The notes under the pieces are model-generated. The model saw only the letters and a list, made by a program, of their open reading frames with translations. It made no database searches and had not been told where the DNA came from. From an uncultured Candidatus Bathyarchaeia archaeon (lineage in GTDB: Archaea; Thermoproteota; Bathyarchaeia; Bathyarchaeales; DTEX01): 59,294 bases of DNA. A program made the translations under genes and the position numbers. Shown here in pieces: positions 9,098 to 53,300 of this stretch. Location: assembly GCA_964465575.1 (NCBI GenBank), contig CAYXIF010000003.1:52296-111589 (forward strand), read 5' to 3'. Positions within the stretch are counted from its first letter, which is position 1, and every line of letters starts with the position of its first letter.

Positions 9098-9196
9098 GGC
9101 CGCTGTAACGTAGAGGAAAATGCCGATGGCCCGCGGAACCTGGTAGCGTACAGGCCTGTGGAGCCTGGAGGTCGGGTTCAAATCCCGGCGGCGGCC
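9098..9196 (+). tRNA. tRNA-His: tRNA-His(GUG) with encoded G-1 and a 25-nt intron at position 15/16 (9114-9138)
   Basis: Acceptor GCCGCTG/CGGCGGC, G-1:C73, D stem ACGT/GCGT, anticodon arm CAGGC-CTGTGGA-GCCTG, T loop TTCAAAT. Removing 9114-9138 restores the D loop AGCCTGGTA. Confidence 0.9.
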
Positions 9197-9310: not shown

Positions 9311-10453
9311 TTAACGATCGTCTGACTTCAACTCGTACTTTTGAGCTGTCTTTTTGTTGATCTCCATGCCGAAGCCAGGTTTGTCTGGTATCTCGATCCA
9401 TCCGTCCTTGATCTCTAAGTGGTCTTGGTAAAGGGTTGGAGCTGGATCCGGGTCTCTGTACGGGCTGGCCCTGCTGATATAGCATTCCACAATAAGCCCG
9501 TTTGGGAAGGCTGCTACAGCGTGGCTCCCAATGATGTGACCGCCATGTGGCGCGAAGTGAATGTGATAAGCGTCTGCCATGGCGGCGATCTTTCTGATTT
9601 CGGTGAGGCCTCCTGCCACATTAGGGTCAGCCTGCACTATGTCTACTGCTCTCTTGGCGATAAGGTCTCTGAAGCCGTATCTTGTGAACTCGTTCTCGCC
9701 AGAGGCTATTGGGATCGTGGTGGAGGCCTTCAACTCAAGACTTCCGTCCATGTCGTCAGGGTGTACGGGCTCCTCAAACCAGAAGGGATGATACTGTTCC
9801 ACTAGTTTGGCGAATCGTTTTGCCTCGTAGGCATTCCATGCGTTGTTTGCATCAACCATTAGGTCAGTCTCGTTGCCTAGGGCTTCTCTAACCGCCTTGA
9901 CGCGTGCTACATCGGTCTCCATACTGACACCGAACCGCCAACCTCCCACTTTCATCTTGACCGCTGTGAACCCCTCAGCTACGTTGCTCTCCATCTCCCT
10001 GACAAGGTCCTCGATACTCTTGCCTTCGGCGTAGTAGCCACCCGCCGCGTAGACGCGTACGCGGTCAGCATAACCCCCAAGGAGTCTATAGACGGGTTGA
10101 CCCAGAGCCTTTCCCGCCAAATCCCAGAGGGCGTTGTCCACGTAGCTCATGGCAGCTATGTATTCACCCTTGGCGATAGGCTTGCGGTTCCCTCCCATGT
10201 ACATCTTCTGCCAGAGGCGCTCAGTATTTAATGGGTCTTCGCCTAGCAGTTTCGGTCTGATTCGATTCTCAATCGTCTCCTTGTTCCCTCCTGGCCAAAA
10301 ACCAGTTATCCCTCCCTCAGCGGTTACCTCGGTGATCGATGCCCAATTCTGTGTCGGAGGCCGGTTGAGCAGGATGGAGTTGAAGAAGGGCTTCCTTGGA
10401 ATCTTGGGAGGAGGGAGCTTGAATGTACGAACTCTTACATCAGTTATCCTCAA
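9311..10453 (-). CDS. Mandelate racemase/muconate lactonizing enzyme (enolase superfamily) acid-sugar dehydratase-like
   Basis: VDNALWDLAGK, KMKVG, MVDANN, WFEEP, SGENEF, FAPH. TTG start at 10453 (MRITDV). Confidence 0.92.
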   Translation of the reverse strand: MRITDVRVRTFKLPPPKIPRKPFFNSILLNRPPTQNWASITEVTAEGGITGFWPGGNKETIENRIRPKLLGEDPLNTERLWQKMYMGGNRKPIAKGEYIAAMSYVDNALWDLAGKALGQPVYRLLGGYADRVRVYAAGGYYAEGKSIEDLVREMESNVAEGFTAVKMKVGGWRFGVSMETDVARVKAVREALGNETDLMVDANNAWNAYEAKRFAKLVEQYHPFWFEEPVHPDDMDGSLELKASTTIPIASGENEFTRYGFRDLIAKRAVDIVQADPNVAGGLTEIRKIAAMADAYHIHFAPHGGHIIGSHAVAAFPNGLIVECYISRASPYRDPDPAPTLYQDHLEIKDGWIEIPDKPGFGMEINKKTAQKYELKSDDR

Positions 10454-10762
10454 CGCGCAAATCCCCCATACCGCTTCCACTATAGATCTTTTAAGCCTTG
10501 CGCGCCCTTGGAGCCCGGCAGACAACAACATCGCTGCTGCGCTCAGGATTTCGTGTGTTCAGATATCCCAGTCCAACTATGTCATGGCTCTTATACGTTG
10601 ATCATCAAGGATTTTGTGAATTCATGTCACCCACGATGTTGAAGCTACGATCCCCTTTAGTGGTTCGGCGGTCTTGTGCACTTTTGGCTGGTGAATCCAC
10701 TTCCTTTTATACGGAACACGACATTGTATCTGTTCAACTCTCAAGAATGAAAGTGTAGATCG

Positions 10763-12160
10763 ATGCGCTGCAATCAGAGGTTCTTTGGGCAAGAGCTCTT
10801 TGAAATGGGCACTCGCGAAAGAGCTTTCTGTTCAAGCCTAGGTGCGCTCAAGCCAGCGATGTCACAGTATGGATTCGCAGTAAGAGACAGCCTTCCGCAG
10901 CTCCCAGCAGACGCAGGTGGTCTGTTGCAGGTGAAGTACAATGGAATGCTGTCAGTGGTTATGTGGGACGATAGGAGAGGCGGCTTCGTCGCTTGGAGCC
11001 TTAGGGGACGGTGCTACTACTCTCTAGCCAACGAAAAGAAACACCCTGTGACCGAGTACTTCAACCAACGCCTAACCCAATCCAGTGACCTCGCATTTGT
11101 GGGTGAGACCTACGTTGTGCGCAAGATTGGAGGCAGAAGCTACATGACCGAGTTTAACAAATCCATAAGCATAATCAAGAATCCAAGATCGGCTAGCGAT
11201 GTGAGCAGAATCAGACTAGCCGTCTTCGACTTCGCAAAGGCAAAGCAGAACCTTGGTTTCGAAAGACCGAAGTCGAGGTACATTGAACGGTGGGAGAAGC
11301 TGCGCGACCATTTCATGTTCCCTGCAGGATGTGACAGTGGCGTGGTCCATCTTCCAGACTACCTGAGGGTTGAAGGGAGCTTTCAAGATTCTTACGACAA
11401 GATTCAAGATTTCTGGAACAGATTCGTTAGAGCGAGAGGATTCGAAGGACTCGTAATGCACACCCAAGACGACCAAGAATACAAGATCAAGTTCAGAGAC
11501 ACCTTAGACGCCGTGATCTTGGCCTTCCGAATGACCGGTACCGGCCGACCCGTGTGCGAGAAGTGCGGAACGAGGTTCGACGCATTCTGGCTTAGGAAGC
11601 TGGAAAGAGAGGGGGTAGTGGCAAGGTCTAAGTGGTTTGATCGTGCTGGCCGTCTTCTTGAGGCTCAAGATGGACATGCATGGAGCAAGAATACCGGTTC
11701 CTGCCCACTTTGTGAAGGACACATAACAACCACTGCTGGGCCAATCCTTGGTGCGAAGATTGCTCTCATGGCTCCTGACGGATGCTTCGTAGATGTTGCT
11801 GATGGGGTTCAGTTCTCGCCGATCTCGCCGATCCTGGATCTAGTAGAGCCCCTCTATGAAGAAGAAGACTATCTTTGGGTCAAGCCTGAGGTTGTTATTG
11901 AGGTATCCTACCAAGGAGACCAGCTTTATGTGGACAGACAGAGACCGGTCTACCGCTATGAAGGCAGCCGCTTCATCAAAGTCCGCACAATGAGAGCATT
12001 CTCACTGCGTCCGTACAGACCAAGACTGAGAGAAGATAAAACAGTGAACCCTAGGGATCTAAGGCTTGAACAAGTGAACTACTTCGTGGGCAGAGTGAAA
12101 GGAATACAGGAACGTTGGAGAACAACGCGACAAGACGACCTCTCAAGATATCTTCCTTAA
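10763..12160 (+). CDS. Divergent ATP-dependent DNA-ligase-like nucleotidyltransferase (NTase + OB fold, Zn-ribbon insert, C-terminal PIP-box-like motif)
   Basis: Motif I QVKYNG, III FVGE, IIIa LAVFD, IV GFEGLVM, V YKIKFRDTLDAVI, OB WVKPEVVIEVSY, VI SLRPYRPRLREDK. Confidence 0.8.
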   Translation: MRCNQRFFGQELFEMGTRERAFCSSLGALKPAMSQYGFAVRDSLPQLPADAGGLLQVKYNGMLSVVMWDDRRGGFVAWSLRGRCYYSLANEKKHPVTEYFNQRLTQSSDLAFVGETYVVRKIGGRSYMTEFNKSISIIKNPRSASDVSRIRLAVFDFAKAKQNLGFERPKSRYIERWEKLRDHFMFPAGCDSGVVHLPDYLRVEGSFQDSYDKIQDFWNRFVRARGFEGLVMHTQDDQEYKIKFRDTLDAVILAFRMTGTGRPVCEKCGTRFDAFWLRKLEREGVVARSKWFDRAGRLLEAQDGHAWSKNTGSCPLCEGHITTTAGPILGAKIALMAPDGCFVDVADGVQFSPISPILDLVEPLYEEEDYLWVKPEVVIEVSYQGDQLYVDRQRPVYRYEGSRFIKVRTMRAFSLRPYRPRLREDKTVNPRDLRLEQVNYFVGRVKGIQERWRTTRQDDLSRYLP

Positions 12161-12169
12161 CAGGACGCT

Positions 12170-13012
12170 TCACTGAAGCCTTGCCAAGTACTCTTGGATT
12201 ATGGGTTTCACGTTGAAGTGGTCTCTCAGGCTCCTGTAGGCATCCAGGCTTTCACGGTTCCTGTTCCTCATCTTCTCAGCACGTAACATAATGTTCTTGG
12301 GCGTGTACCTAGATGAAACGAACTCGAACACGTCTACCCTGTAACCGAAGCTTTCCATGGCAAGTCTTCGCAACGTCTCTGTAAGAGCGACGCCCACGCA
12401 CTCCTTGGAAACCTTCTTCTCTAGCAGAGGTCGCATCGGCCGCACGTTTTTCGCAGTCTGACCGAGTTGTCCAAGGATCTGACGCTGGCAGCACGGCGCG
12501 ACCACTATGTACCTGGCGCCAAGTTGAACGCCTCTGGCGATGGCTTCGTCGGTCGCCGTGTCGCAAGCGTGAAGTGCGCACACAATGTTCACATCCACTT
12601 CGGGGACAAACCCGACTATGCTACTTTTATGAAATTCCATGTTGGTCCAGCAAAGTTCATCGCGGATCTTGGTTGACCTCTCAACGAGCACGGCGTTCGA
12701 GTCTACGCCTACGTATCTCATGCTTCTCCGCATCGTTTTGGCAACATAGTTCACAAAGAACGGCAGATACGAACGGCCGCAACCACAGTCGAGTAGCGTG
12801 ACATCCCTTCTCCTAGTCATGTTCTCTAAGCATCTGACAATGTGTCCCGAGAAGTAGATAACCTCGTACATCTTCTTCTCCCGTTCATTGTACACGACCC
12901 CGGCTGGGTTCGCTAGGCCAATAGTCTTTAGGAAACTTGTAAGCTCATCTGGTTTCCACTCTACCCTTGGAAACACACTTTGAAGGCACCGTAGGATGTC
13001 ACTGTTGGTCAT
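12170..13012 (-). CDS. SAM-dependent methyltransferase (Methyltransf_32-like)
   Basis: LLDCGCGRSYL, ALHACDTATDEAI, VAPCCQ, TPKNIML. Start uncertain. Confidence 0.85.
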   Translation of the reverse strand: MTNSDILRCLQSVFPRVEWKPDELTSFLKTIGLANPAGVVYNEREKKMYEVIYFSGHIVRCLENMTRRRDVTLLDCGCGRSYLPFFVNYVAKTMRRSMRYVGVDSNAVLVERSTKIRDELCWTNMEFHKSSIVGFVPEVDVNIVCALHACDTATDEAIARGVQLGARYIVVAPCCQRQILGQLGQTAKNVRPMRPLLEKKVSKECVGVALTETLRRLAMESFGYRVDVFEFVSSRYTPKNIMLRAEKMRNRNRESLDAYRSLRDHFNVKPIIQEYLARLQ

Positions 13013-13153
13013 GGACCGTCGCACACGATCTGGTGAGCAACACATACACGATGGGCAACCACGCTTTAACTGTTTGGTCCCAATCGCGGAATGGGCACAC
13101 TGCATCAGCTAGTGAACACAAGGCTTAATTCTGGCTTCAGTTTTGATAGGGTG

Positions 13154-13228: not shown

Positions 13229-13329
13229 CTTAAGCCGGATCCCTTGTGAGTAATGTTTCTTTGGTGGGTTGTGTTTGGTAAGAGTTAAGTATAACTTTAG
13301 TATCATTCAATGTAACAATGGTGATTTCA

Positions 13330-13524
13330 ATGGCTTTGGTTAAGACGCGGAAAGTAGGCGGCTCATTAGTAGTCACGTTACCGAAGGAGCTTGTGGAAAG
13401 CAAGAAAATCAAAGAAGGCGAAATTCTGGAAATAGCCGTGCGGAAAGTGAGGAAAGACGGTTTTGGCATTCTCAGGGGGATGAAGCCTTTCACGGTTGAA
13501 GACGAGTTGGCTGCTCATGAATGA
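13330..13524 (+). CDS. vapB: AbrB/MazE/SpoVT-type antitoxin
   Basis: KTRKVGGSLVVTLPKELVESKKIKEGE swapped-hairpin motif; overlaps the PIN gene. Confidence 0.85.
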   Translation: MALVKTRKVGGSLVVTLPKELVESKKIKEGEILEIAVRKVRKDGFGILRGMKPFTVEDELAAHE

Positions 13525-13909
13525 GAGATACATCATAGACGCCTATGCTTGGATTGAGTATCTCATTGGGAGCGAGCCGGGCATAAGTGTCAAGGCCATT
13601 CTAGAGGATGAGAGTAACGACATTTTCACGTGCGCAGTGACGGTTGCGGAGGTCGTGAGCAAGACTATTCGAGAAGGGCGGAACGCTGAAACTGCCTATA
13701 GCATTCTGACTGGCAACTCGGTCATCATCGACATTGACAGCGAGATCTCAAGAGATGCAGGCGTATTGCACGCTGATATGCGGAAGACTAGGAAAGATTC
13801 CGGGCTGTCGGACGCTTACGTGTTAGCTGCATCGAGAATTAATGGGTCAAAGATACTGACAGGAGACCCCCACTTTCAAGGCATACAAAATGCTATCCTA
13901 GTTAAATAA
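13517..13909 (+). CDS. vapC: PIN-domain toxin (VapC)
   Basis: IIDAYAWIEY, VAEV, LSDAYVLA, LTGDPHF acidic tetrad. Confidence 0.9.
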   Translation: MNERYIIDAYAWIEYLIGSEPGISVKAILEDESNDIFTCAVTVAEVVSKTIREGRNAETAYSILTGNSVIIDIDSEISRDAGVLHADMRKTRKDSGLSDAYVLAASRINGSKILTGDPHFQGIQNAILVK

Positions 13910-14265
13910 AGGCACAATAGCCATTTTCTGGGAGCACATATCATCTTCATGAAGAGCGGGGATTTTGCAGTAGATACCCGAGCAGATGAAGGTTCCGTAG
14001 CCTTTGCTGGGACAAAAGCAGTGGTGGAAATGAGTATCGTCCAATACGTAAGACGAATATACAAGAGGACCAAATACCTTTCGCTGAAAAAGGCATGCAA
14101 GGTATCGCCAAGGATGCAATTGAGTCGCCACAACAGCAGTTCATGTTGCAGTTTGGTTGCTTCGGACAAAACATCTCTTCGCATAGGAACTTGATTTCTT
14201 TATCCGTGTGATATAAGATAGCAAGCATTATATATTCTGGAATCAATAAAGATATTCAACGATAG

Positions 14266-14808
14266 GTAGCTGGGTCACTTGATCTGGCTTTCACATATGA
14301 CAAGTCGAGAAGCGTTGTTCAGATCTACAACGGAAGCTTAACTGAGACCTACAGCTATGACGTGCTGGACAGGCTCAACAAGACTACGGGACCCTGGGAA
14401 ACCACTTCCTACGAATATGACGAAGTGGGTAACAGACTACTCATGAAGGTAGGACAGGCCTCGACAAGCTATTTCTATGATTGTATGAACCGGCTTCTTC
14501 AGGCAGGTAACACATACTATAGCTGGGATTCCAATGGTAACCTGAAAGGTGTGTATGACGGGGTGGACACGTGGAATTATACTTACGATTTCATGGATCA
14601 GCTGACGGTCATCAAGAAGAACGGTGCAGTTCAGAGCCAGTTCTGGTACGACGCACAAGGCAGGCGCGTGAGACTGGGGAATGCTCAAGACGGGTACGTT
14701 AACCACGTCTACTCTGGCTTGAACATCATCTTTGAAAACTCGTCTGCAGGCATAGCCACAAAGCATTTCTACGCGAACGGCTTGCACATAGCCGAGAACC
14801 AGATTTAA
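14266..14808 (+). pseudogene. RHS/YD-repeat protein fragment
   Basis: Repeated YD motifs (YSYDVLDRL, YEYDEVGNR, YFYDCMNRL, YTYDFMDQL, FWYDAQGRR). Frame opens after TAG at 14263 without a start and stops before any RHS core terminus. Confidence 0.8.
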
Positions 14809-24880: not shown

Positions 24881-25364
24881 CAGATGCCAAACTAGGATTC
24901 GCGGCATCACCATGTTCCACTAGAGACTCGAACAGGTGATAGCCCGCAATTCTTTCATATGCCTCAGAACCATTCCGATATTTCTTTCGCAGATTCCGTA
25001 AGTTCCGCTTCTCTTCGGTCTCCTTCTCGAGACCCGTGTTTCCGCGGCAATATACACTACGTGCGCTGCTTTCTGCCCGGCATCTTCGGAAAAAGGCTTA
25101 AAGCATCTGGCTAGCAGATAGTGCAATGTAGGTTGGGAAAACCAGATTGCCGGCATTTCTGGAGAGTACCTACGTTAGGTTCGAGTTCCCAGGCGACGGA
25201 TCCTATCAAGCGGTTGATGAGGTATCAAGCGTGCCTCGCCGTTCAAGCCCCTTGGCCAAGCGTTTGGGTTCAGCAACTACCGAGGTGAGCGGGCAGCTTG
25301 TTCATCTATCACTAGACAAGTATGAAGTGTCAAGGAGAGAGCTGCAGGAGGTTTGGCTTGGATG

Positions 25365-26078
25365 TCTATGTCCGAGACTTTGATGCCGTTCCTTAAGAAA
25401 GAGGAACAGGCAAATCAGCCGACGATCATAGTGGATAGCAGGGAGGCAAATGCGGTTCCTAAGATCATCAAGAGCCTGAAGGAGAAGGGCGCCAATATCA
25501 GGGTTGAGCTCCTCGACAAGGGCGACTACGTGATCTCCGACGAATGCGCGTTTGAAAGGAAGACGGTGCAGGACTTCGTTTATACACTAACTCGCCGCTA
25601 CCTTTTCGACCAGCTCTTCCTTCTGAAAGAAGCCTATCCGAAACCATTCATTCTGATCGAGGGATACTTTCCGATCATCTACAAGTTCAGCCGCATAAAC
25701 CCTTCAGCCGTCTGGGGAGCCATGTTCGCCCTCGCAAAACAGGGGATAAATATGATCCACACGACTACTCAGAACGAGACCGTCGACTTCCTTTACACAT
25801 CAGCCAAACAGGAACAGATCGTGGAGAAACGGGTACCGGCAGTGCACCCAGTGAAAAGGACTGGGACCCTAGCCGAAGCTCAAATCTTCTTTCTAGCAAG
25901 CCTTCCCAATATAGGCAGAGAGAAAGCTAAGAGCCTGCTCGAATCATACGAGACGCCTTTCAACGCGCTCGTCAGCTTGGACCGTTGGGCCAAAGACGTT
26001 TATGGTTTGGGACCAAAGATCACGGAGAAAGCGGGAGAGGTTCTGCACACGCCGTATTCTGAGACGAAGGGCAGGTGA
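25365..26078 (+). CDS. xpf: Standalone ERCC4/XPF nuclease with HhH domain
   Basis: IIVDSRE, GDYVIS, ERKTVQDF nuclease motif; LPNIGREKAKSLL HhH. Start approximate. Confidence 0.85.
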   Translation, partial: SMSETLMPFLKKEEQANQPTIIVDSREANAVPKIIKSLKEKGANIRVELLDKGDYVISDECAFERKTVQDFVYTLTRRYLFDQLFLLKEAYPKPFILIEGYFPIIYKFSRINPSAVWGAMFALAKQGINMIHTTTQNETVDFLYTSAKQEQIVEKRVPAVHPVKRTGTLAEAQIFFLASLPNIGREKAKSLLESYETPFNALVSLDRWAKDVYGLGPKITEKAGEVLHTPYSETKGR

Positions 26079-26102: not shown

Positions 26103-27554
26103 TTAGCCCTTTATCACAGCTAATGGAACCAGTCTTGCGACGTGCGTGGCGATCCCGAGAGCATCACTGACCTTCGCGACCTTCTCAACATTCTTGTAGG
26201 CTGGGTCTGCTTCTTCAGCCAAGACCACAGCGCTCTCTGACCTGACGACGATTCCTCTGCTTTCCAAGGATTTCTTGATGTCGCCGCCCCAGAAGCGCTT
26301 CTTCGCAGCCGCTCGGCTCATCATCCTCCCTGCTCCGTGGGCGGTTGACCCGAAAGACAGCTCCATAGCCTTCGAAGTGCCAACAAGCACGTGTGAACTC
26401 GTTCCCATTGAGCCTGGGATCAAGACAGGTTGCCCCAAGCCCCGGTACTCCGCCGGTACAGCTAAGTGACCAGGCGGGAAGGCTCTGGTCGCGCCCTTTC
26501 TGTGAATCCAGACTTTTGCGCGTTTGTCGCCGACATCGTGCTCCTCGATCTTAGCGATGTTGTGGGCTACATCATATGTCAGATTCAACCCCATCTTGTC
26601 CGCGGGCGTCTCAAAAATCTGTTCGAAGCTCTGTCGAACCCAATGCATGATGACATGACGGTTCACAAAGGCATAGTTCACTGCGCATGACATAGCTTTG
26701 AAGTAGTCTTGCCCTTCGTCACTTGGTCCAGGAGCGCACGCCAACTCTCGGTCAGGCAAGGCTATCTTGTACTTGTGAACTGCCCTCTCGGCGACGCGTA
26801 TGTAGTCTGAGCATATCTGGTGACCATATCCACGTGATCCACAGTGGATCATAACAGCGACTTGGCCTTCATGTGTTATGCCGAAAGCTTTGGCAACCTC
26901 TCCGTTGTAGATCCTATCGACTTTCTGGATCTCAAGAAAGTGGTTTCCTGAACCGAGCGTTCCAATCTGAGTCACGCCACGGTTCTTTGCAGTGCTTGAA
27001 ACCTTGTCCGGATCAGCGAGTTCCATGTGCCCTCCCTCTTCGCAGTGTTCAGTATCCTCCAGCCACCCATACCCCTGTTCGACCATTCGTGGCACACCTT
27101 CAACGACGATCCTGTTGAGTTCATGATCTGATATTCGAAGATCCTTTCTTCGGCTACCTAACCCGCAAGGAACATTTCTGAAGATCATGTCAGCTAGCTC
27201 ACGCAGTTTAGGTCTCACATCCATCTCTGAGAAGTTCGTCGTCAGCAACCGTACGCCACAGTTTATGTCGTAGCCTACTCCCCCGGGGCTTATGACGCCT
27301 TCGTCGTAGTCAGTGGCTGCAACGCCTCCGATTGGGAACCCGTAGCCCTCGTGCCCATCAGGTAAGGTAATGGCGTACTTGTAGATGCCTGGCAGATGTG
27401 TGACGTTCGCGCATTGCTCCAGAGTTCGATCAGTCTTCATCTTTTCAAGAAGATCTTCGTCTGTTAGAATAATGCCGGGAACCCTCATGCCCTGCTTGAA
27501 CTTTGTTGGGATGCGCCAAACGTACTTGTCTACTCTCTCAAGTGGGACACTCAT
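26103..27554 (-). CDS. rtcB: RNA-splicing ligase RtcB
   Basis: LPDGHEGYGFPIGG, GYDINCGVR, GSGNHFLE, HCGSRG, HRKGATRA, STAHGAGR. 483 aa from MSVPLE. Confidence 0.97.
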   Translation of the reverse strand: MSVPLERVDKYVWRIPTKFKQGMRVPGIILTDEDLLEKMKTDRTLEQCANVTHLPGIYKYAITLPDGHEGYGFPIGGVAATDYDEGVISPGGVGYDINCGVRLLTTNFSEMDVRPKLRELADMIFRNVPCGLGSRRKDLRISDHELNRIVVEGVPRMVEQGYGWLEDTEHCEEGGHMELADPDKVSSTAKNRGVTQIGTLGSGNHFLEIQKVDRIYNGEVAKAFGITHEGQVAVMIHCGSRGYGHQICSDYIRVAERAVHKYKIALPDRELACAPGPSDEGQDYFKAMSCAVNYAFVNRHVIMHWVRQSFEQIFETPADKMGLNLTYDVAHNIAKIEEHDVGDKRAKVWIHRKGATRAFPPGHLAVPAEYRGLGQPVLIPGSMGTSSHVLVGTSKAMELSFGSTAHGAGRMMSRAAAKKRFWGGDIKKSLESRGIVVRSESAVVLAEEADPAYKNVEKVAKVSDALGIATHVARLVPLAVIKG

Positions 27555-27685
27555 TTCTCTCTTCACCACACCAAACATTAGTGGGGGCCTAATATAAACT
27601 GTTTTGGCGTCGACACCAATAAATACTTTAACCCTAGCCGACATAATATGGGACAGAAAAGCAGAAGGTGAGCTGAAAGCCTCAA

Positions 27686-28168
27686 GTGAATGATATGCTT
27701 GTAAAGGTCTCCCGAAGGTTAACCCTTGAAGAGGTAGAAAAGCGAACAAAGGAGCTTGAGAAAACATACGAGATGACCTTTGACGAGTTCGAAGAGCAGC
27801 TCTTAACGGCTCGAAAGATGAAAGAAGAGTACATAGACGCCTATTTCAGATGGGCCAGGCTAGTGCACGCGCACCGGGGCTATGAAGAAGGAGGCGAACT
27901 CCACTGCATAGTAGAGGAACTGCGCGACCTTAGCTCAAAGGAGCTGAGGGCTTTCACGCCTAAGCGCTTGGAGCTACTTTGCGCTTTGGCTGATTTCAGA
28001 GTTGAGTCGATAAACGAGCTGGCGCGCAAGGTTCGCAGAGATGTCAAGAACGTGCATCAAGACCTTCAGGTTCTCTCAAGACTTGGCATTGTGAGAACGA
28101 CAAGGAAGCGAGGCAAGAAAATTGTCCCCGAAGTTCTTGTCGAAGAAGTAACCTTCGTAGCAAAGTAG
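27686..28168 (+). CDS. HTH transcriptional regulator/antitoxin-like protein (HVO_A0114-type C-terminal domain)
   Basis: FTPKRLELL...SINELARKVRRDVKNVHQDLQVL; N-terminal ELEKTYEMTFDEFE helix. Confidence 0.75.
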   Translation: MNDMLVKVSRRLTLEEVEKRTKELEKTYEMTFDEFEEQLLTARKMKEEYIDAYFRWARLVHAHRGYEEGGELHCIVEELRDLSSKELRAFTPKRLELLCALADFRVESINELARKVRRDVKNVHQDLQVLSRLGIVRTTRKRGKKIVPEVLVEEVTFVAK

Positions 28169-28240: not shown

Positions 28241-31200
28241 TTACAGCGTGCCTATGATTCTGTTCTTGTTCCTTGTCCAGTCCATAATTGCGTCGTGGAC
28301 GAAATCGATCGTTCTTTCGATTGTGCTCGCGGGCGTTCCCGGAACAGCAGGTTCCGTGGCAAGTCTCACGCGGTAGTAATCCTCTCTAGGGCTCTTTGTC
28401 AGAGACAGGCTGTTTCTGGTCTTTCTCTCTTCGCCTGTTCCCCCGAACCGGTAGCGGAATCTGATTTCCTTCACGAGTTCGCCTTTGACATTCTCGATCT
28501 CGGGCACGTTCTCGACATCATCGACACTCTCTAGCGTGCCCGTTTTCAGTTCATCGAGGCGGTCCAAGAAGAAGCCAATGAAGAACTCCTTCTCGCCTAG
28601 ACCCACCTTTACGGGCATGCTCAACTCTCTTCCCTGATAGACCTTGAATATCTCTTCCTTGCGGACCTTCGCCTTCTCCTCCGACAGTTTGAGGCGCTTG
28701 ACCTTCGATGGAGTATATGTGCTTACGGCCAACGCCGCAGGTCTGATGGATGAAAGCACAGATGCGGTTAACGCCAACGCGAAGCCGATCGCGCTCCACC
28801 ACCATTCCAGCTTCTCTCGTACCATGAGTTCCTGACCGAAGAGCACCATCACTCTGTAGAATCCCAACCCTAGTAAGTAACCGAGGCTACCGCCGACCAT
28901 GCCCAGAATTATGGCTTCAGCGACAAAGATCAGCCCTATGTGGGTCGGGTTCAGCCCAAGCATTGAAAGGGTCCTGATCTCCTTTCTCCGCTCGTAAACA
29001 GCATTCAGCATGACCATGCTGACGTTCAGCCCGACCATGACGAGCGGGATAATGAGCTCGGCTGCTCCCTTCATCTCGATGAAGGCGCCGATATGGTAGT
29101 ATGTGATGATCCTATTTGCCACAACAAAGACATCGAATTCCCATCCGTATATCAAGGTTCTCACCATTGAGTCAACGTCGACTGCAGCGCCGGGTTGAAA
29201 GACGATCTCAGAAATCACGGCGAATTCGGGCGCCCCCTCTGGGTGTCGGCTGGCGATAACTCCCTGAAGGGCCTCCGCGGTGTTCCAGCTTATCACCATG
29301 GTTTCTGTGTTGTTGCATCTTCTTACAGAGCCATCTGGAAGAAGCCGTGAAGGGCCAAGCGGGGAGCCATCCACGTCCACTAGACTCAGGTATCGGTCAT
29401 CATTGATCACCCCCTTAATGATAAAGCTTGTTGAAACTCTTGTCCCCAAAATCTCTGCGCTCACATTTTGACCTGTTGAGACGCCTAGGGTATCAGCTAT
29501 AGCTCTGCACAGTAGTACCTCGCCAATCTCGGTCTCGCCTAAGTAGCTGCCTTCGACCGCCTCGTCCAAGTTAGTATACATTGACTCAGCTGCCGGTGTT
29601 ACGCCAAGAACGCCGTAGATGAACCAAGTTTTCCCAGTTTTGGGGTCTGAGAGTCGAACGACTGGGTTGGGGCTAGGAATGTTCTTCAGCCTCACAGCAA
29701 TGTTCCTTATGTCAATTATCCGTGAAAGAACCTTGGCATCACTGGCCCCCAATGGCGAGAAGAGAAGCGAAGTTTCATTGAGCATCCTTTTCACGATTAT
29801 GCCGTCAGATGGCGCAGTTGCGGTCAGTCTGTCGGAGATGATGCCATACGCCGTCCCGAAGGAGGTCAACGAAGTAAAAGCCAGTATGAGGATGATTACG
29901 GATAGTATTGTAAAGAAACCCCGGATTTTTCGCCGTCTTATCTCCCGCTTCCCCATGGAGAAAATCAGTGCGATTGCACTTCTCCATGACACTTCTCCCT
30001 CTATCAGTCTCTCTCTCCAAACTCTAGGAAGACCAAAGATAATAGCTGAGACGCCAAGGAAAGATATTCCAGCAGACTGAAGGAAAAGCAGAACGTTCTC
30101 ATCAATCACTATGTGCGCGCCGGGGTAAGTAAAGTACAAGGAAACCAGAAAGATTGCATAGATTGCCACGCTTGCGAAAAGTTTTCTTCTCTTCTCCTCA
30201 AAGAAGAAGAAAGCCAGCACGGCGCTGAAGGCCGCCATGATCGCAGCTAGGTAGCCGGCGCTTGTCATGGCAATGAGCCGCATGCGGTCAAGAGCCAGTG
30301 AAACGACACGCATTATCCCTAGCACATCACGGAGGGTATTCCAGACCTCCAAGTAGTCGCGGTCCTCCTTTGCCCGCGTCAGGTCTGCACCAGCTTCAAG
30401 AATTCTTTGGTTGGCGGCTGTTAATGAGCGCCTCTCATCAAAGACTACAAAGCCGACGCCTTGTGCTGCGTTAACCGTACGCGAGACAACCACGAACTGC
30501 GCTTCAACATACCTGAGACCGCCTCTGAGGCTGTAGGCTGAGAGTTGGCTTGTAGCTCTGTGACCCTGAAGAAGAAAGAAAGGCAGCGAATCATTATACA
30601 GTCGGAAGGATTCGACCTCTATCCGTCCTCGTTCCCTTGCATAGAAGTAGGTCTGGGCTTCAAGAGTCACGGGTGTGTTCGCTGGAACGATCACGCACTG
30701 CCTGTCTAGACCCAGGAACCATCTGTGCTCTGAATCATAGTATGTGTCAAGGAAGGGTGCATTGAGCTTCTGCTCGCTTAGGACTTTGACGCGTAGGCTT
30801 TGTGCTCCTGGGCTCGAAGACCGAACAAGGTATGGTATACCCTCTAGCTCGATCAAGGCGCCGGGAACTAGTAAGAATGAGACTTGAGCTCCTTCAGGAA
30901 ACTCAACGAAAAGATCAACTTTAGGCGATGGAGCGTAGTCTATAGATCTCGATCCGAAGTCACCCTTGTATGCGTACAGCCTATACCAACGCTCCCGACC
31001 TACGTATGGTCCAGAGATTCTGTACTCTCCATTGTTGTCGGTGAAGTAGATTCCTGCGCCAACCTTTGGAGTGTCAAGGCTGTACAAATCCCACACTAGC
31101 ACTGTTGCATTCGGGATTGGGAGCCCAGTGTTTGCGTCGGCAACCTTGCCGTATATTGCGACCTCAGGTTGAGGAGCAGCAACGAGGGAACTCGCCATGA

Positions 31201-31270
31201 GGTTGGCAAGGGCTAGCAACAAAGTGACACTGGCGAGATACCTCAACCGGAAGGGCATGGCTGAAACCAT
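28241..31270 (-). CDS. Large MacB/FtsX-like permease with N-terminal carboxypeptidase-regulatory-like extracellular domain
   Basis: IYGKVADANTGLPIPNATV; SMGKREIRRRKIRGFFTILSVII; YERRKEIRTLSMLGLNPTHIGLIFVAEA. Confidence 0.85.
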   Translation of the reverse strand: MVSAMPFRLRYLASVTLLLALANLMASSLVAAPQPEVAIYGKVADANTGLPIPNATVLVWDLYSLDTPKVGAGIYFTDNNGEYRISGPYVGRERWYRLYAYKGDFGSRSIDYAPSPKVDLFVEFPEGAQVSFLLVPGALIELEGIPYLVRSSSPGAQSLRVKVLSEQKLNAPFLDTYYDSEHRWFLGLDRQCVIVPANTPVTLEAQTYFYARERGRIEVESFRLYNDSLPFFLLQGHRATSQLSAYSLRGGLRYVEAQFVVVSRTVNAAQGVGFVVFDERRSLTAANQRILEAGADLTRAKEDRDYLEVWNTLRDVLGIMRVVSLALDRMRLIAMTSAGYLAAIMAAFSAVLAFFFFEEKRRKLFASVAIYAIFLVSLYFTYPGAHIVIDENVLLFLQSAGISFLGVSAIIFGLPRVWRERLIEGEVSWRSAIALIFSMGKREIRRRKIRGFFTILSVIILILAFTSLTSFGTAYGIISDRLTATAPSDGIIVKRMLNETSLLFSPLGASDAKVLSRIIDIRNIAVRLKNIPSPNPVVRLSDPKTGKTWFIYGVLGVTPAAESMYTNLDEAVEGSYLGETEIGEVLLCRAIADTLGVSTGQNVSAEILGTRVSTSFIIKGVINDDRYLSLVDVDGSPLGPSRLLPDGSVRRCNNTETMVISWNTAEALQGVIASRHPEGAPEFAVISEIVFQPGAAVDVDSMVRTLIYGWEFDVFVVANRIITYYHIGAFIEMKGAAELIIPLVMVGLNVSMVMLNAVYERRKEIRTLSMLGLNPTHIGLIFVAEAIILGMVGGSLGYLLGLGFYRVMVLFGQELMVREKLEWWWSAIGFALALTASVLSSIRPAALAVSTYTPSKVKRLKLSEEKAKVRKEEIFKVYQGRELSMPVKVGLGEKEFFIGFFLDRLDELKTGTLESVDDVENVPEIENVKGELVKEIRFRYRFGGTGEERKTRNSLSLTKSPREDYYRVRLATEPAVPGTPASTIERTIDFVHDAIMDWTRNKNRIIGTL

Positions 31271-31446
31271 AGGATATACCGCCCTCAATCCTTTTAAAAG
31301 CTTTCTAGAAACCGCTTGTGGAAGTTTGTTGGACCATTGGAGGACAAGCTTACGCTCGAAGTCTACGCTAAGAGAGGATACTGCACTGCAACGAACGTTG
31401 GTGAGTGGCGGAATGGGGGGATCAGGAACCCTCATCGTTCACAAGA

Positions 31447-33345
31447 TCAGTAGGGCATGAGCCAAGTTGACCTAGATATGAGTCTCCATACACTGAGGAT
31501 GGTTGAGACTAACCCGTCTCCAATGAGCATGCCTATGACAACGAACCCCTTGTTCGCTTCCCAAAACCCGCCTCCTATGAACTTGCCGGCGGCAATGGAT
31601 AGCAGCGAGCCCGCGAATTGTGCAAGTGCAGCCCAAGGCGGCATTAACATGCCCGTCATCATGGCAATGGGAAACGACGGAATATGCAAAACCAAGTCGC
31701 AGACAAGGTAGAGAGCTGTGGAGATGCCGAAGCCCGTATACATCCATGTTGGTCTGAACAGGTATCCCGTCCAGAGCCAAGACTGCCAACGCCAGAAGTT
31801 CATGGCTTCCACTGGCCATGCAGAGATCGTGTAGGGATAAGCCCAGCCAGGTATGGGGTTCAGGCGCCAGAAAAGCGAGACGAATGTGAAGCTTCCTGCA
31901 AGTCCTAGTGCGATTATGAGGAAGAATGTCTTCGTGTACTCTTTCACGTCCACGCCCAGCATCGAGGCTTGGATGAGCTGCTGGCTTATGCCAGAACCGC
32001 CTAAGAACAAGGACATTTCAGACGGCAAGAACCATATGTCCAGCCCGCTGTAGCCGCTAGTGTAGATCAAGGTTTCACGAAGATATGGCAAGCTGAAGCC
32101 GCCACTAATACCCGCCGCGTGAGTCTGCAGGAGAGTGATCACAAACGATACTCCCAAAGTGAAGACCACCAAGACCCATACTGGAAAGCCTGGCACAAGA
32201 AGCAGCGTTAGGATGATTGCTGTTGCGGCTGTTGAAAGGTAGACTAACAGAAGCAATTTGCTATTGAGCCACTTCCCGCCAAACCCGCCAGTACGTTCCC
32301 TGATGCTTGCGAAGGCTCTAATGACTGTCTTGTGCTTGAGAAGAAGGGGGATTACGGCAACTGCTATACCCCACCCTATAGTGAAGCTATTCCAAAAGTA
32401 GAGCATCGACCTGCTATAGTGCCAGAAAACTCTCTGATTTGGAATCCATTGGCTCTCGACTGGCCAAAGACTGTTCTCTGTTATGTAGGTGTTGCCAAAA
32501 ACGTAGAGAGCAACACTTGCGATGAACTGAGCCGCAGTGTACTTAATATCTATGATAAAGCCCGGGAGATACAGTGTGAGATCAGTTGAGAACGAGAATG
32601 AAGCTCCTGGAAGTACGGTCTCCACGATGCTTGTGAATTCTACCAGAGTGCGTGGAACCAAAGGCACCGATATGAGGGTGGTGAGTCCATACGTTGCGAA
32701 CCCGTAGACAGCACCAGCCAAGATCGCCAGAGCAATGACCCTTATCCTACTTAAGTCTCTGTCTCCGAAAGACTTCATGGTTTTGGCGTCCCACGTTGCG
32801 AAAGGGAACTCCAGTTTTTCCTCTCGGGCATACAGACTGAAGGCAAAGAGCCCTAGAGTGTAGTTTGCTATGGCGGATAGTGAGATAGGTATGAAAACGC
32901 CAACCAAGATGGGCAGCGCCCAAGCCGCATCAAAGAACGTCCGGTTCATCATGGACCTAATGGCGTCATCCCCAAGAGGAGAAAAGAAACGAGGAACAGC
33001 GTGCTGGAGACCGAATATCTGCGCCACCTCAGAGTTGGCGAAGTATTGGTTGCGGAGCAGGTAAGCGAAGAAGTAGCCTGTGGCCATCAGACCAGTAGTC
33101 TCCATAGTTCGGATTATGAAAATCTCCTTTGAGGTGAGAGGCGATCCCAGCAGTCTTGTCAATCCCACCCAGAGCAAGATCACCGCCCAGCTGGTCAAAG
33201 CCAGACCCCAAAGACCTTCTACTAGCCAGTTGTATACAATGGCAGGCTGTATGATGAACACTATGAAGACGAACGCCATCATGGAGCGCCAAGTTAGACC
33301 TTTCTGTTCGGAGTGTATCTTCTCTAGAACCTCTGTCTCCCCCAC
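31447..33345 (-). CDS. OPT/YSL-like multi-pass membrane transporter
   Basis: LTWRSMM..., EKLEFPF motif, hydrophobic throughout; start overlaps the upstream stop. Confidence 0.65.
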   Translation of the reverse strand: MGETEVLEKIHSEQKGLTWRSMMAFVFIVFIIQPAIVYNWLVEGLWGLALTSWAVILLWVGLTRLLGSPLTSKEIFIIRTMETTGLMATGYFFAYLLRNQYFANSEVAQIFGLQHAVPRFFSPLGDDAIRSMMNRTFFDAAWALPILVGVFIPISLSAIANYTLGLFAFSLYAREEKLEFPFATWDAKTMKSFGDRDLSRIRVIALAILAGAVYGFATYGLTTLISVPLVPRTLVEFTSIVETVLPGASFSFSTDLTLYLPGFIIDIKYTAAQFIASVALYVFGNTYITENSLWPVESQWIPNQRVFWHYSRSMLYFWNSFTIGWGIAVAVIPLLLKHKTVIRAFASIRERTGGFGGKWLNSKLLLLVYLSTAATAIILTLLLVPGFPVWVLVVFTLGVSFVITLLQTHAAGISGGFSLPYLRETLIYTSGYSGLDIWFLPSEMSLFLGGSGISQQLIQASMLGVDVKEYTKTFFLIIALGLAGSFTFVSLFWRLNPIPGWAYPYTISAWPVEAMNFWRWQSWLWTGYLFRPTWMYTGFGISTALYLVCDLVLHIPSFPIAMMTGMLMPPWAALAQFAGSLLSIAAGKFIGGGFWEANKGFVVIGMLIGDGLVSTILSVWRLISRSTWLMPY

Positions 33346-47250: not shown

Positions 47251-47797
47251 GTCGTCAAAGTCCATTGAGCCTTGGCAAACGGCGGAGATTGCTGGTCCGA
47301 AGAGGGCCCAAGTTGTGGTCAAGCCAGAAGTGGTCTCTGCGTTGCTGAGGCGCGCCGAGAAGCCAATCCTCATTGTTGGGCACGAAGCTGCCGAGATTCA
47401 ACTCAAAAAGGGGAAACTCGTTGACTACATAATCCGTGTTGCTGAGAACGCGAGGATTCCGGTCGTTGCTACGGCTCACATGCAGGGCGAGTTTCTTGGT
47501 CGAGGCTTTCTCGTAGATTCTTGGATGCCTGTGGTTGACATAGCGAATAGGCTCACGGACCGCGACTGGAGGGGGCTGGATGGCAAGGGTCCGTACGACC
47601 TCGCCCTCTTCGTGGGGCTTCCCTACTACGTAGAATGGCTCATCCTCTCCGGCATCAAACACTTCTCGGATGATCTCAAGACGGTGTCTTTGGGCAAGCA
47701 TTATCAGCCGCATGCTTCATGGTCATTTCCGAATCTATCCGACGATGACTGGGAAGAGAACCTTGAAGCCATTGTGAGAGAACTGGGGGAAAGATAG
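47243..47797 (+). CDS. cdhB: ACDS epsilon subunit
   Basis: PWQTAEIAGP, GLDGKGPYDL, WSFPN. Confidence 0.95.
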   Translation: MTRSSKSIEPWQTAEIAGPKRAQVVVKPEVVSALLRRAEKPILIVGHEAAEIQLKKGKLVDYIIRVAENARIPVVATAHMQGEFLGRGFLVDSWMPVVDIANRLTDRDWRGLDGKGPYDLALFVGLPYYVEWLILSGIKHFSDDLKTVSLGKHYQPHASWSFPNLSDDDWEENLEAIVRELGER

Positions 47798-47798
47798 A

Positions 47799-49208: not shown

Positions 49209-49213
49209 GCCTC

Positions 49214-50461: not shown

Positions 50462-50474
50462 GAGGCACGAAAGA

Positions 50475-51914: not shown

Positions 51915-51954
51915 GGTGAACCGAAAAGTTGAGGGAGTGGACGCAAAGGAGAAC

Positions 51955-52719: not shown

Positions 52720-52782
52720 AACTTTTTCTTATCGTTAAGATGGCCGAGACCAAGCGCGCTAAGCCCAAAGTTGACATGAAGT

Positions 52783-53298: not shown

Positions 53299-53300
53299 TT

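What the first reader, a model, noticed from the sequence alone, without database searches (positions are those of the whole stretch)
10763..12160. Atypical ligase-like nucleotidyltransferase: KYNG motif, Zn-ribbon insertion, C-terminal PIP box
Seen: motif I is KYNGML instead of KxDGxR; no N-terminal DNA-binding domain; CEKC-x45-CPLC inserted in the OB fold; the protein ends QDDLSRYL, which fits the PIP consensus QxxLxx(F/Y)(F/Y/L). Established: archaeal replicative ligases have an N-terminal DBD and KxDGxR, while KxNG occurs in archaeal Rnl3 RNA ligases. Inference: a PCNA-recruited second ligase or adenylyltransferase family with altered substrate (repair, RNA-DNA junctions or adenylation only).
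Basis: partly seen in the sequence, partly recalled or inferred. Interest (0 to 1): 0.7.

Follow-up and report, generated by a model that had tools for sequence, protein, structure and literature searches.

The report
Zinc-ribbon DNA ligase with PCNA tail
This gene encodes an unannotated, stripped-down relative of DNA ligase with a zinc-binding insert and, in archaea, a tail that looks built to dock onto the sliding clamp PCNA; it is probably an accessory DNA-sealing enzyme, a new variant of a familiar kind.

Summary
ORF 10763-12160 (+, 465 aa) has KYNGML at motif I, no N-terminal DNA-binding domain, CEKC-x45-CPLC inside the OB domain, and ends QDDLSRYLP. Pfam and NCBIfam give no hit. A confident AlphaFold model (pLDDT 91.6) matches only ATP-dependent DNA ligases. 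About 100 homologs exist in Bathyarchaeia, Asgard archaea and some sediment bacteria, all labelled hypothetical. All catalytic residues (motifs I, III, IIIa, IV, V, VI) and the four Cys are invariant in 83 full-length members. The nearest relatives are about 340-aa ligases without a DNA-binding domain from large viruses (hhalign E 1e-52). These match archaeal Lig1 catalytic cores (E 6e-41). The Zn ribbon is a clean 47-68-aa basic insert between OB strands 1 and 2. The Asn is not diagnostic: Asp occurs in a sister member and one crown member, and Asn recurs in the viral outgroup. The PIP-like tail is present in 38 of 66 archaeal-type members in two flavours and in 0 of 16 bacterial-like members. 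Best reading: a virus-derived, DBD-less ATP-dependent DNA ligase with a Zn-ribbon clamp substitute, tethered to PCNA in many archaea. Altered substrate is unsupported. It is a new variant of a known kind, of moderate interest.

The parts
10763..12160 (+). Complete gene for the ligase-like protein (465 aa + stop)
   Evidence: about 100 homologs at 47-72% identity
10706..10711 (+). Candidate archaeal TATA box (TTTATA) 52 nt upstream of the ATG. Inference only.
   Evidence: sequence read, position; not tested
10763..10843 (+). Family-specific N-terminal extension, aa 1-27 (MRCNQRFFGQ...; N4, F8, G9, R20, L26 invariant). Absent from the viral outgroup profile. Role unknown.
   Evidence: hhalign starts at aa 23; model strand 9-12 + helix 18-29
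10844..11506 (+). Nucleotidyltransferase (adenylation) domain, aa 28-248
10934..10951 (+). Motif I KYNGML. K58 is the predicted AMP-accepting lysine. Asn replaces the usual Asp and Leu replaces the usual Arg.
11000..11023 (+). Motif Ia-like LRGRCYYS (G82, R83, S87 invariant)
   Evidence: aligned to the SRR element of Pfu ligase via A2. Assignment inferred.
11096..11116 (+). Motif III FVGETYV (E115, T116 83/83)
11216..11233 (+). Motif IIIa LAVFDF (F155, D156 82/83)
11441..11461 (+). Motif IV FEGLVMH (E228, G229 83/83). The usual Lys at +5 is His (69/83).
   Evidence: PMC7470946 for the canonical Lys
11480..11500 (+). Motif V YKIKFRD (K241, K243 83/83)
11507..12064 (+). OB-fold domain, aa 249-434, interrupted by the Zn-ribbon insert
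11546..11740 (+). Zn-ribbon insert, aa 262-326, between OB strands 1 and 2. It is 47-68 aa long in the family and has mean net charge +3.1. Proposed DNA-clamping module.
11555..11566 (+). First Cys knuckle CEKC (C265, C268 83/83)
11702..11713 (+). Second Cys knuckle CPLC (C314, C317 83/83)
12002..12040 (+). Motif VI SLRPYRPRLREDK (R416, P417, R423, K426 83/83; D425 82/83)
12065..12130 (+). C-terminal helix, aa 435-456, that carries the tail away from the OB domain
   Evidence: helix 435-463; pLDDT falls toward the end
12131..12154 (+). PIP-box-like octamer QDDLSRYL, aa 457-464, followed by Pro and the stop codon

Best explanation
The gene encodes an active ATP-dependent polynucleotide ligase of the DNA-ligase lineage, reduced to the NTase + OB catalytic core.

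Shown here:
- It has the DNA-ligase fold.
- Its nearest relatives are DBD-less DNA ligases of large dsDNA viruses, which in turn are closest to archaeal Lig1-type catalytic cores.
- Every residue needed for the three-step reaction is invariant: K58 (lysyl-AMP); E115, F155, E228 (nucleotide and metal contacts); K241/K243 (phosphate contacts); and the motif VI residues R416/R423/K426 (orienting the PPi leaving group in step 1).
- Four invariant Cys define a basic 47-68-aa insert in the loop between OB strands 1 and 2.
- Roughly half of the archaeal members end in a PIP-box-like octamer.

Inferred:
(1) K58 is adenylylated by ATP, with motif VI closing over the site. N60 makes the water-mediated contact to the catalytic metal that Asp makes in canonical ligases and Asn makes in MthRnl.
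(2) The enzyme-AMP closes around nicked duplex DNA. The zinc-stabilised basic insert replaces the missing N-terminal DNA-binding domain as the third side of the clamp, as the OB-domain latch does in Chlorella-virus-type ligases.
(3) AMP is transferred to the 5'-phosphate and the nick is sealed.
(4) In Bathyarchaeia- and Thorarchaeota-type hosts, the flexible tail at the end of the C-terminal helix docks into the PCNA hydrophobic pocket and brings the enzyme to clamp-marked nicks in repair or Okazaki-fragment processing. Bacterial-host versions have no PCNA and lack the tail.
(5) It is an accessory ligase alongside a canonical Lig1-type enzyme. This last point is assumed, not shown.
For: Fold: AF2 model pLDDT 91.6, pTM 0.83. 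Foldseek PDB ranks 1-48 are all DNA ligases (Thermococcus 3rr5 E 2.9e-12, human Lig1, LigD, T4, ASFV). Capping enzyme appears only at rank 49, and no RNA ligase is in the top 50. The viral library likewise returns DNA ligases.

Lineage: hhalign of A1 against the outgroup profile A2 gives probability 100%, E 1.1e-52, over NTase + OB with the insert as one clean gap. A2 against the PDB gives P. furiosus ligase E 5.7e-41, human Lig1 8e-21, LigD 1e-9. Outgroup genes lie on virus-like contigs next to a family B polymerase, dCMP deaminase and Pyr_excise, and on IMG/VR contigs of 119-255 kb.

Active site: invariance in 83 sequences.

Asn is tolerated: KYDGML occurs in the sister member P0107 (40% identity, both CxxC pairs) and in crown member P0022. 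KxNG occurs in 7 outgroup ligases. The MthRnl motif I Asn bridges the catalytic Mg (PMC11040149).

Insert: it holds about 70% of the protein's net positive charge in 14% of its length. The latch of ChlV/Bsp ligases is an OB-domain insert that engages DNA, and its deletion costs 10-fold in activity (PMC8455567; PMC7470946).

PIP: canonical Q..L..Y[LFIM] in 20 Bathy-type members, plus 6 Q-less and 4 with Y[VAT]. The x positions vary freely, while the h, aromatic and final hydrophobic positions are held and Gln is kept in 24 of the 30. TLDEW[LMIF] occurs in 8 of 9 Thor-type members, and no motif in 0 of 16 basal members. The basal clades are bacterial by Omp85 and TonB-plug neighbours and a Latescibacteria label. 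The tails resemble the archaeal consensus PIP peptide KTTQSTLDSFFK (PMC4929162). The window already has RtcB for RNA ligation.
Against: - No biochemical data exist for any member.
- Motif I lacks both the Asp and the Arg of KxDGxR, and motif IV lacks the Lys that normally contacts adenine N1 (PMC7470946). Nucleotide or substrate preference could therefore differ.
- 27 of 57 Bathy-type members have no tail, so PCNA tethering is not essential to the family's function.
- The window's own XPF homolog shows no C-terminal PIP for comparison.
- No conserved replication or repair neighbour points to a pathway.
- The isolated insert modelled only moderately (pLDDT 68) and has no significant structural analogue.
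- Positional equivalence to the ChlV latch was not verified by superposition.
- Presence of a canonical ligase in the same genome was not testable.
- No transcript data.
Confidence: 0.6

Rival explanations
1. It is an RNA-directed ligase: it seals RNA nicks or RNA-DNA junctions (for example a ribonucleotide-terminated 3'-OH at Okazaki fragments) rather than ordinary DNA nicks. The Asn/Leu version of motif I reflects this.
For: KxNG or variable residues at this position occur in RNA ligases. MthRnl has a motif I Asn (PMC11040149), and the Asp equivalent is not conserved in T4 Rnl2 (PMC6035275). The motif I Arg is missing. Several outgroup proteins also hit Pfam RNA_ligase PF09414 weakly, and one is labelled 'RNA ligase family protein' by NCBI.
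Against: No RNA ligase is in the top 50 structural matches. The protein has an OB domain with motif VI, as DNA ligases do. Asn and Asp interchange inside the family. The nearest relatives sit in viral DNA-replication gene sets. The same window encodes RtcB. A PCNA-binding tail implies action on clamp-loaded DNA, although an RNA-DNA junction role is compatible with that.
Confidence: 0.15
2. The catalytic reading is right, but the C-terminal octamer is not a PCNA-binding motif. It is a lineage-specific helix cap or binds some other partner.
For: About half of the archaeal members lack it. A relaxed PIP pattern occurs by chance in 6/127 window ORFs. No PCNA or clamp-loader gene is nearby. No binding test was possible.
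Against: The h, aromatic and final hydrophobic positions are held while the x positions vary, and Gln is kept in 24 of 30 Bathy-type tails. A second flavour (TLDEW[LMIF]), typical of archaeal PIPs, occurs in Thor-type members. The motif is at the extreme C-terminus after a low-confidence flexible end, like known archaeal PIPs (PMC4929162; PMC7776575). It is absent from all 16 bacterial-like members. 33/41 observed versus 0.7 by shuffling.
Confidence: 0.2
3. It is a nucleotidyltransferase that stops at adenylylation (or guanylylation). It would be a 5'-end activating or capping-type enzyme, or a protein-modifying enzyme, not a strand-joining ligase.
For: Motif I and motif IV depart from the ligase consensus. 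mRNA capping enzyme shares the fold and appears at rank 49. Some Rnl3 enzymes accumulate adenylylated substrate (PMC11040149).
Against: Capping enzymes score far below the DNA ligases (1e-6 versus 3e-12). The closest relatives are viral DNA ligases. Nothing in the family's sequence distinguishes it from those except the insert and the tail.
Confidence: 0.05

Closest known systems
DBD-less ('minimal') ATP-dependent DNA ligases of large dsDNA viruses (uncharacterised metagenomic group, profile A2; Pfam PF01068 + PF04679)
   Same: NTase + OB core only. Motif I is Kx[D/N]G[E/M][L/F] without the Arg. They share the motif V/OB junction (YKIKP..D.VIIG) and the extended motif VI ...R.DK.VNP.DLRLEQ. 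hhalign probability 100%, E 1e-52.
   Different: They have no Zn-ribbon insert, no N-terminal 22-aa extension and no C-terminal helix or tail. They are encoded in viral genomes, whereas the target family is in cellular contexts and was not found in IMG/VR. Only about 25% identity.
Archaeal/eukaryotic Lig1-type replicative DNA ligases (P. furiosus 2cfm, Thermococcus 3rr5, human LIG1)
   Same: Best structural matches. Same motif order I-VI. KPMLA-like element before motif I and the OB element VVIEV.YQ align directly.
   Different: Lig1-type enzymes have a roughly 220-aa N-terminal helical DNA-binding domain, KYDGxR, a motif IV Lys, and a short loop (WGEGRRAHLFG in Pfu) where the target has the Zn ribbon. 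By my recollection they contact PCNA through the N-terminal or DBD region, not a C-terminal tail (not tested here).
Chlorella virus / Burkholderia Bsp-lig 'latch' ligases (PF14743-type OB)
   Same: [quoted passage not shown]
   Different: The latch is a 27-30-aa beta-hairpin without metal. The OB subtype (PF14743) and sequence differ. These ligases were not among the top 50 fold hits. Positional equivalence of the inserts was not verified here. Not a member.
NAD+-dependent LigA
   Same: A ligase that uses a Cys4 zinc module near the OB domain to organise its DNA clamp (PMC7470946).
   Different: In LigA the Zn finger follows the OB domain and positions an HhH domain. LigA uses NAD+, has domain Ia and belongs to an unrelated lineage.
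Rnl3 archaeal RNA ligases (MthRnl, PpaRnl, Pab1020)
   Same: Covalent NTase core. MthRnl has an Asn in motif I that contacts the catalytic Mg through water.
   Different: Rnl3 enzymes did not appear in the fold search. PpaRnl has Asp94 in motif I. From my own knowledge (not tested here), Rnl3 architecture differs: an N-terminal domain plus dimerisation and C-terminal domains instead of a DNA-ligase OB domain. Not a member.

Membership tests
Covalent nucleotidyltransferase superfamily, ATP-dependent DNA ligase branch | NTase domain followed by an OB domain (fold) | tested here: met
   AF2 pLDDT 91.6. Foldseek ranks 1-48 are DNA ligases, E down to 2.9e-12.
Covalent nucleotidyltransferase superfamily, ATP-dependent DNA ligase branch | Motif I lysine and motifs III, IIIa, IV, V in order | tested here: met
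   K58, E115, F155/D156, E228/G229, K241/K243 are invariant or 82/83.
Covalent nucleotidyltransferase superfamily, ATP-dependent DNA ligase branch | Motif VI (R..R.DK) in the OB domain | tested here: met
   LRPY....R.DK with R416, R423, K426 83/83. Aligns with RFPRF..R.DK of Pfu ligase via A2.
Covalent nucleotidyltransferase superfamily, ATP-dependent DNA ligase branch | Full KxDGxR consensus of motif I | tested here: not met
   KYNGML: Asn in 81/83, Leu in 80/83. The Arg is also absent from the whole viral outgroup.
Covalent nucleotidyltransferase superfamily, ATP-dependent DNA ligase branch | Passes curated profile thresholds (Pfam PF01068/PF04679, NCBIfam ligase models) | tested here: not met
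   No Pfam hit, and TIGR02779 scores 11.6 bits against a 227.75-bit cut-off. The sister member P0107 passes PF04679 with 31 bits against 27.5.
Covalent nucleotidyltransferase superfamily, ATP-dependent DNA ligase branch | Self-adenylylation and nick sealing | not testable with these tools
   Needs enzyme assays.
Lig1-type replicative ligase (archaeal/eukaryotic) | N-terminal helical DNA-binding domain | tested here: not met
   Only 57 residues precede K58. Alignment to Pfu ligase begins at about residue 221-234 of that protein.
Chlorella-virus-type latch ligases | Beta-hairpin latch insert in a PF14743-type OB domain | tested here: not met
   The insert is a Cys4 module with two helices. There is no PF14743 hit. 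The two may work alike, but this is not a member.
Rnl3 RNA ligases | Rnl3 fold/architecture | tested here: not met
   No RNA ligase among the top 50 PDB fold matches. No PF09414 hit for the target.
mRNA capping enzyme (GTP) | Closest structural and sequence kinship to guanylyltransferases; KxDGxR | tested here: not met
   First capping enzyme is at rank 49, E 1.1e-6. Motif I differs.
Zinc ribbon (Cys4) | Two CxxC knuckles, conserved | tested here: met
   C265, C268, C314, C317 83/83, also present in the sister member P0107.
Zinc ribbon (Cys4) | Metal actually bound; recognisable ribbon fold | tested here: inconclusive
   Isolated insert model pLDDT 68. Foldseek best E 1.3, with only generic Cys4 modules listed. 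Metal content needs experiment.
PIP-box PCNA partners | Qxxhxxaa at a flexible terminus | tested here: met
   QDDLSRYL at aa 457-464, with pLDDT dropping at the end. 20 canonical, 6 Q-less and 4 near-canonical Bathy-type tails, and 8 of 9 Thor-type.
PIP-box PCNA partners | Physical binding to PCNA | not testable with these tools

The most novel reading that the evidence does not exclude
The enzyme is not an ordinary DNA nick sealer. It would be a PCNA-tethered ligase specialised for junctions that canonical Lig1 handles poorly, such as ribonucleotide-terminated or RNA-DNA nicks, or for 5'-adenylylation. The Asn/Leu motif I, the His in motif IV and the Zn-ribbon clamp would together set that specificity. 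Archaea close to the eukaryotic ancestor would have recruited it from viruses, with clamp-binding tails of two flavours that may have arisen separately.
Probability: 0.12. Interest if true: 0.7.

Novelty: new variant of a known kind. Interest (0 to 1): 0.5.

Why it matters
By my general knowledge, most archaea are thought to rely on a single Lig1-type ligase. A second, structurally distinct ligase shared by Bathyarchaeia and Asgard archaea would add a player to archaeal repair and replication.

For ligase enzymology it offers a third solution to the problem of encircling DNA without a DNA-binding domain, beside the Chlorella-virus latch and the Lig E mode: a zinc-stabilised basic insert.

The family is also a natural experiment in clamp tethering. 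The same catalytic core occurs with a Q-type tail, a W-type tail or no tail, tracking whether the host has PCNA.

The family is invisible to Pfam and NCBIfam and is annotated 'hypothetical' everywhere, so a profile for it would improve annotation of sediment archaeal genomes. Compact ligases are also of practical interest as reagents.

Tried and rejected
- Sequence-profile searches of the target and its family profile against Pfam, NCBIfam and PDB sequences gave only marginal hits. Classification had to come from the fold and from a bridging outgroup profile.
- Conserved gene neighbourhood: nine look-ups around eight family members, tblastn of the window's neighbours against 23 loci, and all-vs-all clustering found no partner gene. 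The only recurrences were shadow ORFs inside the gene and the abundant GFO/IDH/MocA oxidoreductases.
- Mobile or viral carriage of the family itself was rejected: no hit in IMG/VR, and the contexts are cellular and metabolic.
- In-genome PIP comparison: the window's short XPF homolog has no C-terminal PIP, and no PCNA, Fen1, RFC or polymerase gene lies in the window.
- Read-through of the stop in tail-less P0003: no PIP remnant downstream.
- Structural analogue of the isolated insert: model pLDDT 68 and no significant Foldseek hit.
- Organism names via cluster look-ups were mostly empty.
- Transcription evidence: no RNA run listed.
- A second ligase in the window: none.
A tighter sub-alignment worked.
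- Literature searches found no description of this family (one search was a malformed query).
- Considered and rejected: a pseudoenzyme (all catalytic residues are invariant), Rnl3 membership, and capping-enzyme membership.
Full report
**1. What is in the sequence**

The window contains an ATG-initiated ORF at 10763..12160 on the + strand encoding 465 aa. It is flanked by genes on the opposite strand: an enolase-superfamily gene (9311..10531) and a Methyltransf_32 gene (12170..13105) whose stop lies 9 nt from the ORF's stop. It is therefore monocistronic. A TTTATA element lies 52 nt upstream of the ATG. This is only a candidate promoter.

- KYNGML at aa 58-63.
- Only 57 residues before the lysine.
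- CEKC at aa 265-268 and CPLC at aa 314-317, separated by 45 residues.
- A C-terminus QDDLSRYLP, which is the PIP-like octamer plus one Pro.

**2. Curated libraries do not recognise it, but the fold is unambiguous**

Pfam and NCBIfam give no meaningful hit. PDB sequence searches with the protein or with a 45-sequence family profile give only marginal matches to P. furiosus DNA ligase, at motif I and in the OB domain.

An AlphaFold2 model built on the family alignment is confident (mean pLDDT 91.6, pTM 0.83). Foldseek against the PDB returns DNA ligases at ranks 1-48:
- archaeal Lig1-type (3rr5, E 2.9e-12);
- human LIG1, including the LIG1-DNA-PCNA complex (TMq 0.50);
- LigD, T4, ASFV and Prochlorococcus ligases.

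The first capping enzyme is at rank 49, and no RNA ligase is in the top 50. The viral structure library likewise returns DNA ligases.

**3. The family**

A search of 5.8 billion proteins found 104 close relatives (47-72% identity). All are 'hypothetical' and none has a Pfam domain. One remote Verrucomicrobia protein carries the DNA-ligase Pfam domains.

Reference genomes place the closest homologs (61-69% identity) in Bathyarchaeia MAGs. More distant ones (51-56%) are in Promethearchaeota, Thorarchaeota and Hermodarchaeota. The window carries a CODH/ACS cluster, RtcB and a short XPF and is found in sediment metagenomes. It is most likely from a Bathyarchaeia genome.

A basal group of short-tailed members appears to be bacterial:
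- Their contigs carry Omp85, a TonB-receptor plug domain and recurrent sulfatase neighbours.
- A partial member labelled Latescibacteria is 88% identical to P0063.

The exhaustive HMM search of 1.84 billion cluster representatives shows a sharp gap. Family members score 388-790 bits, and everything else scores 117 bits or less. The full-length outsiders match in two stretches that skip the Zn-ribbon region.

**4. Where it belongs**

The nearest outsiders are ligases of about 340 aa, plus fusions, that pass the Pfam DNA_ligase_A_M/A_C thresholds.
- A 42-sequence profile of them (A2) aligns to the family profile with hhalign probability 100% and E 1.1e-52 over the whole NTase + OB core.
- A2 matches the catalytic cores of archaeal Lig1-type ligases at E 5.7e-41, human LIG1 at 8e-21 and LigD at 1e-9.
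- Two outgroup genes lie on virus-like contigs beside a UDG-fused family B polymerase, dCMP deaminase, NUDIX and Pyr_excise.
- Relatives occur on IMG/VR contigs of 119-255 kb.
- The target family itself was not found in the viral collection, and its contexts are ordinary cellular genes.

The family is therefore a cellular offshoot of virus-type, DBD-less DNA ligases, which themselves derive from the Lig1-type core. It does not fall inside any characterised clade.

**5. Active site**

In 83 full-length members the following are invariant or nearly so:
- Motif I: K58, G61, M62.
- Motif III: E115, T116.
- Motif IIIa: F155, D156 (82/83).
- Motif IV: E228, G229.
- Motif V: K241, K243.
- Motif VI: R416, P417, R423, K426.

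This pattern is that of a working enzyme, not a pseudoenzyme. There are three departures from the DNA-ligase consensus:
- Asn for Asp at K+2 (81/83).
- Leu for Arg at K+5 (80/83).
- His for the motif IV Lys (69/83).

The literature gives the roles of the canonical residues:
- The motif I Arg hydrogen-bonds the AMP ribose, and the motif IV Lys contacts adenine N1 (PMC7470946).
- The motif I Asp contacts waters at the catalytic metal site in the Chlorella virus ligase (PMC11040149).
- LigIV D275A is nearly inactive (PMC6035275).
- In the Rnl3 enzyme MthRnl a motif I Asn makes the water-bridged metal contact (PMC11040149).

The Asn is not a fixed hallmark of the family:
- The sister member P0107 has KYDGML. 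It is 40% identical, has both CxxC pairs and has a more canonical motif VI (MRFPDF..REDK).
- One crown member, P0022, also has KYDGML.
- KxNG recurs in 7 viral outgroup ligases.
- The missing Arg is shared by the whole outgroup.

I therefore read the motif I variant as a near-neutral lineage trait, not as evidence for new chemistry.

**6. The Zn-ribbon insert**

hhalign shows the segment aa ~262-326 as a single insertion between OB strand 1 (DAVILAFR) and strand 2 (ILGAKIALM). In P. furiosus ligase this position is the short loop WGEGRRAHLFG.
- The four Cys are 83/83 invariant.
- F272, D273, W291 and F292 are nearly invariant and probably form a small core.
- The insert is 47-68 aa long.
- It carries a mean net charge of +3.1, against +4.5 for the whole protein.
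- The full-length model places two short helices between the knuckles.
- Modelled alone, the insert is only moderately confident (pLDDT 68). It has no significant structural analogue, and only generic Cys4 modules are listed.

In two-domain ligases of the Chlorella-virus type, an OB-domain latch engages DNA and compensates for the missing DNA-binding domain (PMC8455567). Deleting it costs 10-fold in activity (PMC7470946). I propose the Zn ribbon plays the same part. This is an inference. I believe the insert sits in the same loop as the latch, but I could not verify that by superposition.

**7. The C-terminal tail**

Mapped on a neighbour-joining tree and counted:

| Group | Members | Tail motif |
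|---|---|---|
| Bathy-type | 57 | 20 canonical Q..[LIVM]..[YF][LFIM]; 6 Q-less; 4 Q..L..Y[VAT]; 27 short tails with no motif |
| Thor-type | 9 | 8 end in ..TL[DE][EK]W[LMIF] |
| Basal, bacterial-like | 16 | none |

- Within the motif the x positions vary freely (QDDLSRYL, QGSLVDYL, QSNLDDYF, QDTLHQYL and others). The h, aromatic and final hydrophobic positions are held, and Gln is kept in 24 of the 30 Bathy-type tails.
- 33 of 41 long archaeal tails match, against 0.7 expected by shuffling. Relatedness inflates this figure.
- The tails resemble the archaeal consensus PIP peptide KTTQSTLDSFFK bound to A. fulgidus PCNA (PMC4929162).
- C-terminal PIPs are usual in archaeal clamp partners (PMC7776575).
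- The model ends in a long helix (aa 435-463) whose confidence collapses at the last residues, as expected for a flexible docking peptide.
- Some crown members stop where the relative P0002 has the Gln codon, and no remnant lies downstream. These are clean losses.

The motif is thus real and selected in many archaeal lineages, dispensable in others, and absent where there is no PCNA. Binding itself is untested.

**8. Context and pathway**

No gene accompanies the family across 23 related loci. The window has no PCNA, Fen1, polymerase or second ligase. The window's RtcB (26103..27767) already provides RNA ligation. Its XPF homolog lacks a C-terminal PIP. No transcriptome data were available.

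**9. Verdict**

- Right: this is a distinct ligase family with a conserved Zn ribbon and a probable PCNA tether.
- Not supported: that KYNG links it to Rnl3 or signals an altered substrate.

The best explanation is a virus-derived, DBD-less ATP-dependent DNA ligase whose zinc-stabilised basic insert helps clamp DNA, and which many archaeal hosts have tethered to PCNA. It would be an accessory sealing enzyme. I put confidence in the whole statement at about 0.6, and in the fold and lineage part at above 0.9.

I found no description of it in the searchable literature. It is a new variant of a known kind.

Noticed in passing
window 9119-9196 (+): ARAGORN calls a 78-nt tRNA-His. Rfam scores it below threshold (26.3 bits against a 29-bit cut-off) because the acceptor stem aligns poorly. 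It may be an atypical or intron-bearing archaeal tRNA, or a decayed copy.
   Followed up: partly
window 25353-26078 (+): Short-form ERCC4/XPF nuclease homolog. It ends ...TPYSETKGR with no PIP-like motif, unlike the PCNA-dependent short XPF of Sulfolobus as I recall it.
   Followed up: partly
window 26103-27767 (-): RtcB RNA ligase. The Pfam domain starts only at residue 118 of the 554-aa ORF. This is either an N-terminal extension or an over-long ORF call.
   Followed up: no
window 44899-54937 (+): Archaeal CODH/ACS (acetyl-CoA decarbonylase/synthase) gene cluster with CooC-like ATPases and a DUF166 gene. This indicates Wood-Ljungdahl metabolism, consistent with Bathyarchaeia.
   Followed up: no
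window 28241-37994 (-): Three consecutive large ORFs. Two are FtsX/MacB-like permease proteins of 1064 and 1556 aa, the larger with a Peptidase_M28 domain. A 632-aa ORF without any Pfam hit lies between them.
   Followed up: no
window 13318-14808 (+): Overlapping MazE/AbrB-type antitoxin and PIN-domain toxin pair next to tRNA-Ala, followed by an RHS-repeat fragment.
   Followed up: no
proteins P0131, P0144, P0158, P0233, P0241, P0125: Relatives of the minimal ligase core are embedded in giant proteins of 2000-3400 aa, and one is fused to an N6/N4 DNA methylase. These are possibly polyproteins of mobile elements or large viruses.
   Followed up: no
L024 1-21035: Virus-like contig carrying the nearest outgroup ligase. 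It also encodes a UDG-fused family B polymerase, ribosomal protein S21, Cpn10 and a PAAR-motif protein.
   Followed up: no
L021 2193-3558 and L022 2913-4080: In this bacterial-like member (P0098) the gene is called as a 331-aa product followed by an overlapping ORF (126 aa in L021; 61 aa, cut at the contig end, in L022). This suggests a frameshift or split gene.
   Followed up: no
protein P0105: A 322-aa protein with a TRAP-transporter solute-binding domain (PF03480) matches 21% of the query at 69% identity. It is probably a gene-call or assembly chimera.
   Followed up: no
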